Positions 1 through 3,761 of a stretch of 64,000 nucleotides of DNA are shown piece after piece. The position numbers and the translations under genes were made by a program. The notes below the pieces were generated by a model that worked only from the letters and a program-made list of their open reading frames with translations, made no database searches and was not told where the DNA came from. The DNA is from the human T2T-CHM13v2.0 reference genome, Homo sapiens. Position 1 is the stretch's first letter; each line of letters begins with the position of its first letter. The stretch lies in the NCBI RefSeq assembly GCF_009914755.1, contig NC_060932.1; one strand, 5' to 3'.

Positions 1-385
1 CTTCAGTATTCAAAATTCCAATAATAAATAGTTGTGTTTTGGAAGTTCATCCACAAAGATTCTTGGGTGAGTAGGGGGCTGTTATTCATGGCTGAGTTAT
101 AATAACACTTGGGATCTGTAGACTGTCCAAAAAGGTAACAGAAACCCAGGCTTTCATCAACACTTTCATGAGAGAGATTGTATTGTAGGTTAATAGTTCT
201 TTTCTGAAGAAAATTTTTCAGTTCTGTTTAGCAAATCTGTTATCTACAAAGAACAAAAGAGATTTGAACCTTATTAGACAATGCATTCAGTATGTGAGCC
301 AAAGTATGAATTTCTCAAGCCGTACTTCTCTGACAAATTCTTCCCTCAGAACTGAGGAAATTTTGATTTAAATTGCCCAGATATT

Positions 386-422
386 GGCTCTGTTGCGCAA
401 TGGATAGCGCATTGGACTTCTA
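386..422 (+). pseudogene. Tailless retropseudogene of the 5' half of tRNA-Arg(TCT)
   Basis: GGCTCTGTTGCGCAATGGATAGCGCATTGGACTTCTA matches nt 1-37 of tRNA-Arg-TCT except G9>T. It ends in the anticodon loop, has no 3' half or B box, and is flanked by direct repeat TAAATTGCCCAGATATT (369-385 and 421-437). Confidence 0.93.
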
Positions 423-569
423 AATTGCCCAGATATTTTCTAATCTCCATTTTTTATGCAATAGCTGAATGGAGTTATAATACAGTTTCCTGAGATTATG
501 GCTGATATATTAAACTTCACAAATCTTTGTTTTATTTTCTTTTTCTTAGAGTTGATTTTGTTGTCTTGT

Positions 570-1043
570 TGTCACGTGCATCCGTGTGAAGGGACCACCA
601 AACAGGCTTTGTGTGAGCATCAAGGCTGTTTATTTCACCTGGGTGCAGGCGGGCTGAGTCCGAAAAAGGAGTCAGCAAAGGGTGGTGGGATTATCATTAG
701 ATCTTACAGGTTTTGGGGATAGTCGGTGGAATTAGGAGCAATGTTTTGCAGGCAGGGGGTGGATCTCACAAAGTACATTCTCAAGGGTGGGGAGAATTAC
801 CAAAAACCTTCTTAAGGGTGGGTGAGATTACAAAGAAACTTCTTAAGGGTGGGGGAGATTACAAAGTACATTGATCAGTTAGAGTGGGGCAGAAAGAAAT
901 CACAATGGTGGAATGTCCTCAGTTAAGGCAGGAACTGCCCATTTTCACTTCTTTGTGGATCTTCAGTTGCTTCAGGCCAGCTGGATGTATATATGCAGGT
1001 CACAGGGGATATGATGGCTTAGCTTGGGCTCAGAGGCCTGACA
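570..1043 (-). mobile_element. Solo LTR7-family (HERV-H) LTR
   Basis: Minus strand begins TGTCAGGCCTCTGAGCCCAAGCTAAGCCATCATATCCCCTGTGACC; TG...CA termini; 5-bp TSD CTTGT (565-569, 1044-1048); three internal aagggtggg(g)gaga repeats. Confidence 0.93.
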
Positions 1044-1052
1044 CTTGTCTTA

Positions 1053-1451
<399 letters not shown>

Positions 1452-1922
1452 TTAATCACTCTGTGATAAGAAGTACCCATACAGACAATTAAGACAAAAA
1501 ACTATTAAAAAATACAGTTGAAGAGAAAAAGAGTAAGAAAAATATCAATCATTCTCCATTTATTTTTGAAATACATAGGTATATTTTCAGGGGACAGGAT
1601 GTGTATGTGTCCAGCAATGATCAGGAGCTAAGGCAATCGCAGTGTATTATACAAAGCTGGCTGCTGCTCCCAGAATGCTTCTAATCAGGCAGCAGGGATG
1701 AGCACTCAGATGTAGGTATAATAATCTAACTACCGTTTGGACAGGACATGATATAATGAGATCCCCTCAGGATGCTATAGCTGAAGTGACAGAAACCCAA
1801 TTCAAACTGATTTAAGCATGAAAGAAAATTCTTTGGCTCACAAAGCTGAAAAATTTAAAAGTAGGTTGGTTGGATCTGATATGGACAGGAGGCAGGGAAA
1901 TACTAGGTAGAAAAAAGTGGGG

Positions 1923-2338
<416 letters not shown>

Positions 2339-2405
2339 TCAAAGCTGGGCCCATGAGTGAGACTCCATCTGAGAAGAGAAGAGAAGGGGGAGGGAGGGGA
2401 GGGAA

Positions 2406-2911
2406 TGTGGGATATGGCAAGGTTTCTCTTCAAATAACGCGATCAGTCTTTTATTCTTTAATTCATAGTACCCCCCACTTTTTTCCCTTTTTCTCCTTTT
2501 TTCCCTTTTTGCATTTGTTAGATGCCCAGGCATGCCTCAGTACCAGGTGTTATCAGTACCAGCTCACATTCCTTTCCTTATTTGGAAAGAGGACTAACTT
2601 TCTAGCTCATTACAGACACCCTTTCCCCTTTCCTCTCCACTTTCTTTTATGTGCCCACCTTATCTAAAAAAATCAAATGTTTAGCCAACCGGAATTAGTT
2701 TAGATTATACGACCGGACCCTGGCCAGTGGGGAAAGGGTACAGGGGCAGGACTTGCATCAGGAATAAAGGCTCTTGTGCCCCTTTGTTCAGGTGTGCTCT
2801 CATGGCGACTGGCCAAGGAGGCACCCCTCTGTGCAGAAGTAAAATTGCTTTGCTAAGAATCCTTTGTTCGAGTGTTCAGTTTCCTTAGGATTTTGAGCAT
2901 TATTCCTTACA
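2406..2911 (+). mobile_element. Solo LTR10-family (HERV-I) LTR, subfamily uncertain
   Basis: TGTGGGATATGGCAAGGTTTCTCTTCAAATAAC...TTATTCCTTACA; TG...CA ends; AATAAA at 2763 and AGTAAA near 2838; no clean TSD. Confidence 0.7.
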
Positions 2912-3761
2912 AGGACAGAAGAGAAGAGAAGAGAAGGGTGGGGTCCCTGACAAGGTTTCCACCCTCAAGCCTGGGCCACTGGCCCTAAATGAGAACTTTA
3001 AATCCCTGTTTTCCCATCCAAATATTGCCTTTTGGCCCACCACACCCCTTACTCTGTGCCCATGGAAACCCCAGGCTCCACTAGCAGAGCAGCAGAGCGG
3101 TGTGGCAGGGAAGGAGAGGAGAGAAGCGTCTGAACATCCAGAAGGGAAGAGGCGCTGGACATTGGAGACTAGGATCGGGGAGGAGTTTGGCCGGGGATGA
3201 TTGGAAAGGAGTTCGGCCAGGGACAGCCGAACTCTAGGGGAAGATTATCTTCCCACTCCATCCCCTTTCCTGCTCCCCATTTCACTGAGAGCCATTCCAC
3301 TGCCCAATAAAATCTCTGCATTCACCATTCTTTAAGTCCTTGTGACCTGATTCTTCCTGGATGCTGGACAAGAACCTGGGTACCAAGAGAGCAGGGTGTA
3401 AAAGGCTACCGGGATCCTCCCCTGAGCTGGTTTTAACACCTAGCCATCAGCAAAAGGCAAATGCTAAAAGAGCATTGTTTGTAACACACGATCCCTGGGA
3501 CCCCAGAGGTCGTGGGCAACACCTAGACACTGCCGGGGGCAGTATGGGTTAGTTCCTGCGGACACTTAGTTCCCAAAGGCACTTGCCCCAGCGCCTGCGC
3601 CCACTCACCTGTGTGCCCCCCACTCCTCCAAGGGAATTGAGCTGAGTAAACGAGCCACCCCTGTTGCAAGTCCTGCAAGGGGATTAAGGGAATTCTCCCG
3701 TCTCAGATGCAGGGGCTCAAATTCCATTGTGGGAACTTAAGACTCTGTCTGTCTTCTGCTG

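What the first reader, a model, noticed from the sequence alone, without database searches (positions are those of the whole stretch)
394..394. G9>T: possible genomic fossil of m1G9 misreading by a reverse transcriptase
Seen: the only difference from the recalled tRNA-Arg-TCT sequence (GGCTCTGTGGCGC...) is T at tRNA position 9, while both CpGs are intact, so the copy is young and a chance transversion at this exact site is unlikely. Known: position 9 purines of many cytosolic tRNAs carry m1G (TRMT10A), which causes RT misincorporation. Inference: L1 RT copied a modified tRNA and wrote the epitranscriptomic mark into DNA, so such retrocopies could be an archive of ancient tRNA modification. Practical consequence: misread tRNA-fragment reads would map perfectly here and mimic a piRNA or novel small-RNA locus.
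Basis: partly seen in the sequence, partly recalled or inferred. Interest (0 to 1): 0.8.

Follow-up and report, generated by a model that had tools for sequence, protein, structure and literature searches.

The report
tRNA half-copy carrying a modification scar
A 35-base retrocopy of the front half of a human arginine tRNA differs from its parent genes only at the base that is methylated in the mature tRNA, and sister copies across the genome suggest the copying enzyme misread that methyl mark and wrote it into DNA.

Summary
Window 386-420/423 is the first 35-38 nt of tRNA-Arg-TCT. It has no poly(A) and no 5' leader, and it lies between perfect 17-nt target-site duplications (369-385 and 421-437). 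Its only difference from four Arg-TCT genes is T for G at tRNA position 9 (window 394).

The element is a known kind, an L1-made "tailless retropseudogene". A published catalogue lists a 40-bp ArgTCT copy at hg19 chr8:122827872, very probably this locus.

The new part is the reading of T9 as a scar of m1G9, and a genome-wide test supports it. I compared truncated, TSD-flanked copies of three TRMT10A substrates (Gln-CTG, Arg-TCT, iMet).
- Position 9 is changed in 7 of 10 leaderless copies, which derive from 5'-processed tRNA (C3, T3, A1).
- It is changed in 4 of 40 copies that still carry a pre-tRNA leader (p=3e-4; Gln alone 6/7 vs 1/25).
- Leaderless copies of tRNAs with little or no m1G9 keep position 9 in 18 of 20.

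Support within Arg-TCT itself is thin: 1 of 3 leaderless copies is changed. Orthologues and the L1 enzyme's own error pattern could not be checked. I found no prior report. Confidence about 0.75.

The parts
367..374 (+). L1 endonuclease-like target site, TT/TAAATT. The nick falls between 368 and 369.
   Evidence: Sequence. It resembles the consensus TT/WAAAAWW that Noll 2015 derived for tailless insertions; 5 of the 7 positions after the nick fit.
369..385 (+). 5' target-site duplication, TAAATTGCCCAGATATT (17 nt). It abuts tRNA position 1, so there is no 5' leader.
   Evidence: the repeat finder reports two copies at 100% identity with spacing 52. The TSD finder gives score 17 and leader 0.
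386..420 (+). Retrocopied tRNA-Arg-TCT positions 1-35: acceptor 5' strand, D arm, anticodon stem 5' strand and part of the anticodon loop. Bases 421-423 (TAA) could equally be tRNA 36-38 or the start of the TSD.
   Evidence: 35 of 36 bases match the genes L002-L005. There is no intron and no leader.
394..394 (+). T at tRNA position 9, where all five Arg-TCT genes have G. This is the proposed scar of m1G9.
   Evidence: m1G9 on Arg-TCT: Vilardo 2020 Table 2. Family-level enrichment.
421..437 (+). 3' target-site duplication. Its first three bases (TAA) are identical to tRNA 36-38, giving microhomology for internal priming.
   Evidence: sequence. Target/RNA complementarity is described for this class.

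Best explanation
An L1 (ORF2p) target-primed reverse transcription event copied the 5' part of a mature tRNA-Arg-TCT into chr8. The template had lost its 5' leader; whether it had been spliced cannot be told at this locus.

Proposed steps:
1. The nicked target (TT/TAAATT) annealed to U36-A37-A38 in the anticodon loop and primed cDNA synthesis toward the 5' end. This gives a tailless, 3'-truncated copy flanked by a 17-nt duplication. This step is shown by the anatomy.
2. The template carried N1-methylguanosine at position 9, installed by TRMT10A (literature).
3. m1G cannot form a Watson-Crick pair, so the RT inserted a wrong base. The result was fixed as T in the sense strand. This step is inferred from the family-wide pattern.
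4. T was either written directly, or C was written first, creating a C9-G10 CpG that later deaminated to T. Direct writing is more likely here, because the two other CpGs are intact.

Copies made from primary transcripts that still carry a leader, or a leader plus intron, mostly keep G9. This implies that m1G9 is largely absent from those precursors.
For: Anatomy:
- Perfect 17-nt TSD, no leader, no tail, end at position 35-38 with 3-nt microhomology.
- This matches the class described by Noll 2015.
- Table S2 of that paper lists hg19 chr8:122827872-122827911 as 'chr11.trna3-ArgTCT'.

m1G9 on the parent tRNA:
- Arg-TCT-2/3/5 show a position-9 error of 0.19-0.20, falling to 0.002 in the TRMT10A knockout.

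Family test, using truncated copies with a TSD score >=8:
- Gln-CTG: leaderless 6/7 changed (C, C, C, T, T, A); leader-bearing 1/25 (p=5e-5).
- Arg-TCT: leaderless 1/3; leader-bearing 2/13 (both A).
- iMet: T9 in the copy with a 3-nt leader, G9 in the copy with a 4-nt leader.
- Pooled: 7/10 vs 4/40 (p=3.1e-4). Without this locus: 6/9 vs 4/40 (p=9.8e-4).
- Transversions only: 6/10 vs 1/40 (p=8.5e-5).
- Changes occur on two different Gln isodecoder backgrounds (T20 and G20), so they are independent events.

Not an age effect:
- Mismatch rate at other sites is 3.8% in leaderless and 4.8% in leader-bearing Gln copies.

Negative controls, leaderless copies:
- Gly-TCC 1/10 changed. It has the same U8-G9-G10-U11 context and is absent from the printed rows of Vilardo's Table 2.
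- Glu-CTC 1/4 changed (signal 0.0035).
- Cys-GCA 0/6 changed (A9).
- Sources.

Robustness and consistency:
- The result holds at leader cut-offs of 0-4 nt (p<=7e-4). Controls are never significant.
- The likelihood ratio for this locus, RT scar versus later mutation, is 18-180.
- The commonest outcome, C, is what the group II intron RTs write at m1G9.
- A non-LTR RT (Bombyx R2) gives misincorporation signals that were used to call m1G9.
Against: - Within Arg-TCT itself only 1 of 3 leaderless copies is changed. L011 and L191 keep G9, and L191's class is ambiguous.
- Two leader-bearing Arg-TCT copies have A9 (L010, L200), and one unclassifiable copy has A9 (L189).
- The two group II intron RTs compared in print read m1G9 as C rather than T. 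L1 ORF2p's behaviour at m1G is not documented in anything I saw.
- Controls are not clean. T9 occurs in one leader-bearing Gly-TCC copy (L115) and one leaderless Glu-CTC copy (L145), and A9 occurs in a tandem Gly-TCC pair.
- C32 is unchanged here, although Arg-TCT is reported to carry m3C32, another Watson-Crick-blocking mark. This is recalled, not from a call.
- The leader cut-off was chosen after I had seen the data.
- The TSD finder is a simple ungapped one.
- Only copies with <=3 mismatches (in 36 nt, or in 24 nt for Arg) were sampled.
- The families were those whose gene sequences I could obtain.
- No orthologous sequence was available.
Confidence: 0.75

Rival explanations
1. Ordinary point mutation after insertion. 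The retrocopy was made faithfully with G9, and a G>T transversion later happened to hit position 9.
For: - One mismatch in 36 nt is unremarkable for an old insertion. Most dated tailless copies fall on the anthropoid branch, 258 of 406.
- Position-9 changes also occur at a low rate in controls and in leader-bearing copies: 2/14, 2/34 and 4/40.
Against: - This copy shows no other change in 31 non-CpG bases, 2 CpGs or the 17-nt TSD pair. That bounds d below 0.029 and makes a hit at this base unlikely (<3%; G>T <1%).
- The family-wide excess at position 9 in leaderless copies (7/10) cannot be produced by random mutation, since other sites change at about 4%.
Confidence: 0.1
2. Two-step scar. The RT wrote C opposite m1G9, as group II intron RTs do. 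This created a new C9-G10 CpG that later deaminated to T. It is a variant of the main explanation, and the mark is still the cause.
For: - C is the commonest outcome among leaderless Gln copies, 3 of 6.
- C is the read identity of m1G9 for TGIRT and Induro.
- In Arg-TCT and Gln, G10 follows position 9, so a C9 would sit in a CpG (sequences).
Against: Both original CpGs of this copy are intact, and nothing else has changed. A deamination at a third CpG alone is therefore less parsimonious than direct writing of T. T also occurs in iMet and Glu copies.
Confidence: 0.12
3. RT error or template effect unrelated to methylation. Position 9 of a folded mature tRNA sits in the tertiary core, and L1 RT might stumble there whatever the modification. 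Alternatively, the copy derives from a lost or rare Arg-TCT allele with T9.
For: [quoted passage not shown]
- Leaderless copies come from folded mature tRNA, so structure and modification are confounded in the leaderless versus leader-bearing contrast.
Against: - Leaderless copies of Gly-TCC have the same U-G-G-U context and the same fold class, yet keep G9 in 9/10. Cys-GCA keeps A9 in 6/6.
- No gene with T9 exists in this assembly.
- Changes at position 9 arise on different isodecoders with different bases, which a single variant source gene cannot explain.
Confidence: 0.05

Closest known systems
Tailless retropseudogenes of tRNAs (Schmitz et al. 2004, not readable here; Noll et al. 2015, Genome Biol Evol, PMC5322556)
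   Same: - 5' full-length, 3'-truncated in a single-stranded loop, no oligo(A).
- Flanking TSD, a TT/WAAAA-like target, and microhomology between target and RNA.
- Made by L1 in trans.
- Their Table S2 lists an ArgTCT copy at hg19 chr8:122827872-122827911 that is very probably this one.
- They also note that unprocessed tRNAs serve as sources, which I see as leader- and intron-bearing copies.
   Different: - The 2015 main text has no occurrence of 'modif' or 'methyl'. It treats the copies as structural markers and does not analyse internal mismatches.
- The split into leaderless and leader-bearing copies, and the position-9 scar, are not in what I could read.
- I could not open the 2004 paper.
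RT misincorporation signatures used in tRNA sequencing (DM-tRNA-seq, mim-tRNAseq, Induro-tRNAseq, OTTR-seq)
   Same: The chemistry is the same: m1G blocks Watson-Crick pairing, so an RT stops or inserts a wrong base. TRMT10A-dependent errors at position 9 of Arg-TCT, Gln and iMet were measured this way.
   Different: - Those are in-vitro cDNA errors read in sequencing libraries. Here the error would have been made in vivo by L1 ORF2p in the germ line and inherited as DNA.
- Base preference differs: TGIRT and Induro write mainly C, whereas the genomic copies show C, T and A.
RNA editing or deamination recorded in retroelement copies (A-to-I or APOBEC footprints in retrocopies). Recalled from memory, not from a call.
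   Same: The concept is the same: a feature of the RNA or cDNA intermediate, not of the parent gene, becomes heritable DNA through retroposition.
   Different: Editing changes the base identity that a polymerase reads. Here a methyl group causes misreading. tRNA base methylation has not, to my knowledge or in my searches, been reported as fixed in retrocopies.

Membership tests
Tailless retropseudogene (L1-mediated, tRNA-derived) | Derived from a small RNA, complete at its 5' end | tested here: met
   Window 386 onward equals tRNA-Arg-TCT position 1 onward, at 35/36 identity to four genes.
Tailless retropseudogene (L1-mediated, tRNA-derived) | No oligo(A) tail; 3' end at an internal single-stranded region | tested here: met
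   The copy ends at position 35-38 in the anticodon loop and runs straight into the TSD.
Tailless retropseudogene (L1-mediated, tRNA-derived) | Flanking target-site duplication | tested here: met
   17/17 identical direct repeat at 369-385 and 421-437.
Tailless retropseudogene (L1-mediated, tRNA-derived) | L1 endonuclease-type target (TT/WAAAAWW) with complementarity to the RNA's 3' end | tested here: met
   The target is TT/TAAATTG, and the TAA equals tRNA 36-38. The match is imperfect: 5 of 7 positions after the nick.
Tailless retropseudogene (L1-mediated, tRNA-derived) | Listed in the published catalogue | tested here: inconclusive
   Table S2 has hg19 chr8:122827872-122827911, ArgTCT, 40 bp. 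T2T holds only one Arg-TCT-like copy on chr8 at <=3 mismatches, and a second chr8 entry in the table is of the chr1.trna9 type. No liftover was available to prove identity.
Functional tRNA gene | Complete cloverleaf with T arm and acceptor 3' strand | tested here: not met
   ARAGORN finds no tRNA and Rfam reports no tRNA match in 1-3000. The sequence after position 38 is the TSD and flank.
Genomic scar of an RT-blocking tRNA modification (m1G9) | Parent tRNA carries the modification at that position | tested here: met
   Literature: Arg-TCT-2/3/5 show a position-9 error of 0.19-0.20 that is lost in the TRMT10A knockout.
Genomic scar of an RT-blocking tRNA modification (m1G9) | Template was processed tRNA rather than primary transcript | tested here: met
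   Leader length is 0 and there is no intron sequence. In contrast, 13 Arg-TCT copies carry gene-specific leaders or introns. Splicing status itself cannot be decided, because the copy ends before or at the splice site.
Genomic scar of an RT-blocking tRNA modification (m1G9) | Excess of changes at that position in copies of modified tRNAs, absent from unmodified templates and unmodified tRNAs | tested here: met
   7/10 vs 4/40 vs 2/14, robust to the cut-off. The signal is driven mainly by Gln-CTG (6/7); Arg-TCT alone gives 1/3.
Genomic scar of an RT-blocking tRNA modification (m1G9) | Base written agrees with the copying enzyme's known signature | not testable with these tools
   I found no data on L1 ORF2p at m1G. 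Group II intron RTs write C. The genomic copies show C3, T3, A1.
Genomic scar of an RT-blocking tRNA modification (m1G9) | The change dates from the insertion, so all orthologues share it | not testable with these tools
   No primate genomes are held. The catalogue gives only summary ages.

The most novel reading that the evidence does not exclude
Tailless tRNA retrocopies are a genome-wide, datable archive of the tRNA epitranscriptome.

- L1 reverse transcriptase in the germ line wrote m1G9 into DNA as a C, T or A substitution in most copies of mature TRMT10A-substrate tRNAs, but not in copies of leader-bearing precursors.
- The copies therefore record three things: which tRNAs were m1G9-modified millions of years ago; that m1G9 is installed after 5'-leader removal; and how ORF2p behaves on modified templates in vivo.
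- The same logic should extend to m1A58, m2,2G26, m3C32 and m1G37 in longer copies, and to other mammals.
Probability: 0.6. Interest if true: 0.8.

Novelty: new variant of a known kind. Interest (0 to 1): 0.7.

Why it matters
If the reading holds, four things follow.

1. Hundreds of short, neglected tRNA-derived insertions become a fossil record of RNA modification. It can be dated by presence or absence across primates and read directly from genome assemblies. Questions such as when TRMT10A acquired its present substrate set become testable without ancient RNA.
2. It gives an in-vivo view of two processes that are hard to observe: what L1 ORF2p does at a Watson-Crick-blocking base, and at which maturation stage m1G9 is added (after leader removal, as the contrast between copy classes suggests).
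3. It supplies a criterion, a scar at position 9, for telling whether a retrocopy came from mature tRNA or from a precursor.
4. There is a practical consequence. The T9 36-mer is unique in the genome, so cDNA reads of Arg-TCT 5' halves with a G9>T misincorporation would map perfectly and uniquely here. They could be mistaken for expression of this intronic locus. The six scarred Gln-CTG copies may pose the same risk; I did not test whether their sequences are unique.

Tried and rejected
- ARAGORN and Rfam on window 1-3000 gave no tRNA call, as expected for a half molecule.
- m2,2G26 as an independent test with Ile-AAT was uninformative. G26 lies in a CpG, so G26>A cannot be told from deamination.
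- m1A9 test with Asp-GTC. All 37 places keep A9. Of the 6 non-gene copies fetched, 2 are full-length, 1 has a 9-nt leader and 3 carry a '...gtct' upstream end with no TSD found. None is demonstrably leaderless, so this is neither support nor contradiction.
- Further TRMT10A substrates gave almost no retrocopies within 3 mismatches: Thr-CGT (2 places, both genes), Gln-TTG, Thr-AGT, Arg-TCG.
- The Arg-TCT C6 isodecoder added one copy without a TSD.
- BLAST mode with a whole Arg-TCT gene found only the same 12 places.
- I sought Pro and Arg-CCT genes (strong m1G9 substrates) among 15 unlabelled tRNA hits. None was of those types, so these families remain untested.
- Dating of the locus failed. 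The catalogue's Table S4 is a summary without per-locus ages, and no primate genomes are held.
- Schmitz et al. 2004 could not be opened by PMC id or PubMed id.
- Prior-art searches found nothing that links tRNA retrocopies to RNA modification:
  - 231 papers with >=3 of 4 terms; none of the 20 listed contains 'retropseudogene';
  - 0 papers;
  - 7 papers;
  - 142 papers with >=3 of 5 terms;
  - 20 papers;
  - 33 papers;
  - passages read in the LINE-1 recombination preprint ('modification' 0 times) and in Telonis 2014 (reference list only).
- These searches cover only the held library. Subscription papers and bioRxiv supplements were not visible.

Full report
WHAT IS THERE

Window 386-421 reads GGCTCTGTTGCGCAATGGATAGCGCATTGGACTTCT. 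A whole-genome pattern search with this 36-mer at up to 3 mismatches found 11 places, and the reversed-pattern control found none.

- The window is the only exact match.
- Four places (chr6, chr9, chr11, chr17) differ only by G at position 9. Their flanks show they are complete intron-containing Arg-TCT genes (ARAGORN).
- A fifth gene (chr1) differs also at position 6.

T at window 394 is the single difference from the parent genes, and both CpGs are intact. No Arg-TCT gene with T9 exists in this assembly.

- The piece is bracketed by a perfect 17-nt direct repeat, TAAATTGCCCAGATATT, at 369-385 and 421-437.
- The repeat abuts tRNA position 1, so there is no leader.
- The copy stops at position 35-38 in the anticodon loop, where TAA is shared by the tRNA and the target.
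- There is no A tail.
- The pre-insertion site reads TT/TAAATT.
- ARAGORN and Rfam see no tRNA here.

WHAT KIND OF ELEMENT

This is the anatomy of a 'tailless retropseudogene'. These are L1-mediated, target-primed copies of small RNAs that start by internal priming at an A-rich loop. The target consensus is TT/WAAAAWW, and the target is complementary to the RNA's end (Noll et al. 2015; sections read).

The paper's Table S2 lists 666 tRNA-derived copies. One is 'chr8 122827872 122827911 chr11.trna3-ArgTCT' (hg19), which is very probably this locus. I could not lift coordinates over to prove it. The element as such is therefore already known.

That paper's main text never uses 'modif' or 'methyl'. 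Its age table is a summary only, with 258 of 406 dated copies on the anthropoid branch.

IS m1G9 THERE, AND WHAT DO RTs DO WITH IT

- Vilardo et al. 2020 (passages and Table 2) report a TRMT10A-dependent error signal at position 9. The values are 0.19-0.20 for Arg-TCT-2/3/5, 0.07-0.08 for Gln-CTG, 0.1-0.2 for iMet and 0.0035 for Glu-CTC.
- Gly and Cys are absent from the rows I saw.
- TGIRT and Induro read m1G9 mainly as C (Induro-tRNAseq paper).
- A non-LTR retroelement RT (Bombyx R2, used in OTTR-seq) gives misincorporation signals that were used to call m1G9.
- AlkB removes m1G9 only moderately in folded tRNA (Clark 2016).
- I found nothing on L1 ORF2p at m1G.

THE TEST

The window's genome can be searched by pattern, so I ran a version of that test.

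- I took 5' halves of real genes from fetched loci and searched them at <=3 mismatches.
- I fetched flanks and classed every non-cluster hit with a simple ungapped TSD finder (score >=8).
- 'Leader' is the number of bases between the 5' TSD and tRNA position 1.
- Many copies carry leaders, and for Arg-TCT pieces of intron, that match specific parent genes. Examples are '...tgtga' of the chr1 Gln genes and 'caagca' plus 'agcctaaatc...' of the chr6 Arg-TCT gene. These are copies of primary transcripts, as the literature notes.
- Other copies begin exactly at +1.

RESULTS IN m1G9 FAMILIES

Gln-CTG, 62 places:
- 26 are full-length and all have G9.
- 7 are leaderless (<=2 nt), and 6 of them are changed at position 9 (C, C, C, T, T, A).
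- 25 are leader-bearing, and 1 is changed (A).
- 4 have no TSD, and all have G9.

Arg-TCT, 23 non-gene copies:
- 3 are leaderless. This locus has T9, and L011 and L191 have G9. L191 is ambiguous and may have a 5-nt leader.
- 13 are leader-bearing, and 2 are changed (both A).
- 7 have no TSD, and 1 has A9.

iMet, 2 copies:
- T9 with a 3-nt leader.
- G9 with a 4-nt leader.

Pooled statistics:
- Leaderless 7/10 changed versus leader-bearing 4/40 (Fisher p=3.1e-4).
- Leaving this locus out: 6/9 versus 4/40 (p=9.8e-4).
- Gln alone: p=5.2e-5.
- Transversions only: 6/10 versus 1/40 (p=8.5e-5).

The two classes are equally diverged elsewhere, at 3.8% and 4.8% mismatches at other sites. The changes sit on two different Gln isodecoders, so they are independent events.

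CONTROLS

- Gly-TCC has the same U8-G9-G10-U11 context and is not among the m1G9 tRNAs I saw listed. It gave 74 places, of which 45 lie outside gene clusters and were fetched. The 29 unfetched cluster hits all have G9.
  - Leaderless: 1/10 changed (an A in an odd tandem pair).
  - Leader-bearing: 2/26 changed.
- Glu-CTC: 20 of 55 places fetched; the 35 unfetched all have G9.
  - Leaderless: 1/4 changed (T).
  - Leader-bearing: 0/8 changed.
- Cys-GCA has A9. I fetched the first 13 non-cluster hits of 58 places: leaderless 0/6 and leader-bearing 0/5 changed. Among all 58 matched strings, one has A9>G.

Comparisons with the m1G9 families:
- Leaderless 7/10 versus G9 controls 2/14 (p=0.010).
- Versus all controls 2/20 (p=0.0017).
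- Gln versus Gly: 6/7 versus 1/10 (p=0.0037).

I chose the 2-nt cut-off after looking at the data. At cut-offs of 0, 1, 2, 3 and 4 nt the contrast stays significant in the m1G9 families (p between 8e-5 and 7e-4) and is never significant in the controls.

WHAT THIS MEANS FOR THE LOCUS

The copy is leaderless, derives from a strongly m1G9-modified tRNA, and carries one of the common outcomes, T. Nothing else in it or in its TSD pair has changed. This bounds post-insertion divergence at d<0.029.

Take T among the nine other leaderless copies (2/9) as the scar probability, and d/4 as the chance of a later G>T. The likelihood ratio then favours the scar by 18- to 180-fold over d=0.05 to 0.005 (the mutation-rate ratios are my assumptions).

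T may have been written directly, or C may have been written and then deaminated in the new C9-G10 CpG. The intact neighbouring CpGs favour direct writing.

WHAT SPEAKS AGAINST IT

- Arg-TCT alone is thin, at 1 of 3.
- A9 appears in two leader-bearing and one unclassifiable Arg-TCT copy.
- The controls are not spotless: T9 in Gly L115 and Glu L145.
- The two group II intron RTs compared in print prefer C.
- C32 is unchanged although Arg-TCT is said to carry m3C32 (recalled, not from a call).
- The sample is limited to copies with <=3 mismatches and to families whose genes I could obtain.
- Pro, Arg-CCT and Arg-CCG were not tested.
- The TSD finder is crude.
- No orthologue could be examined.

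NOVELTY

The element class is known, and so probably is this very locus. RT signatures of m1G9 are routine in tRNA sequencing.

What I did not find in print is that such a signature is fixed in germ-line retrocopies, or that it separates copies of mature tRNA from copies of precursor tRNA. The evidence for absence is searches, and passages. Two limits apply: Schmitz et al. 2004 was not readable, and only the held library was searched.

I therefore rate this a new variant of a known kind. My confidence is 0.75 that T394 is an m1G9 scar, and about 0.6 that the general archive reading is right.

Noticed in passing
L007, L008, L009, L042, L187, L192-L199 (Arg-TCT copies on chr11, chr19, chr1, chr2, chr20 and others): Many Arg-TCT retrocopies contain the 5' leader and part of the intron of one identifiable parent gene, for example the chr6 gene's 'caagca' leader and 'agcctaaatc' intron. 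They are copies of unspliced primary transcripts, so each can be assigned to its source gene.
   Followed up: partly
L065... specifically Gln-CTG leaderless copies L071, L081, L093 (position 29 of the tRNA): Position 29 (G in the anticodon stem) is changed in 3 of 7 leaderless Gln-CTG copies (A, T, A), against 1 of 25 leader-bearing copies. I know of no modification there. It lies close to the priming end, so it may reflect early-extension errors.
   Followed up: no
L121 (G000 chr10:22508443-22508535): Two Gly-TCC 5'-half copies lie 57 bp apart in tandem. Both have A9, and they share long flanking repeats (TSD scores 27 and 25). This looks like one retrocopy duplicated together with its target site, or a second insertion into the same site.
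   Followed up: no
L008 (chr19), L095 (chrX), L112 (chr1), L157 (chr3), L129 (chr4): Position 10 is also changed in several copies: G>A in Arg L008, Gln L095 and Gly L112; G>T in Gln L157 and Gly L129. Position 10 carries m2G in iMet, and I recall the same for other tRNAs. No class pattern was evident.
   Followed up: no
L165 (chr5) and L169 (chr20), Asp-GTC copies: Two of the six fetched Asp-GTC copies are changed at U8 (to C and to G), next to the m1A9 site, while A9 itself is kept in all 37 places found. The numbers are too few to interpret.
   Followed up: no
G000 chr1:160,577,000-160,734,000 (L096 is one unit): In this assembly a 7.4-kb unit carrying Leu-CAG, Gly-GCC, Glu-CTC, Gly-TCC and Asp-GTC genes is repeated more than 20 times at regular spacing.
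   Followed up: no
window 1106-1388 and 1924-2206: Partial matches to the SRP RNA model, all below its gathering score (Rfam). They look like Alu elements; my reading, not tested. They are unrelated to the finding.
   Followed up: no
L097 (G000 chr8:136094770-136094805): An initiator-tRNA-Met 5'-half copy has T9 and a perfect 14-nt TSD but three extra bases (gat) before position 1. All 11 position-9 changes in the m1G9 families lie in copies with leaders of <=4 nt, and none in the 25 copies with longer leaders. Some very short 'leaders' may therefore be untemplated additions rather than precursor sequence.
   Followed up: partly
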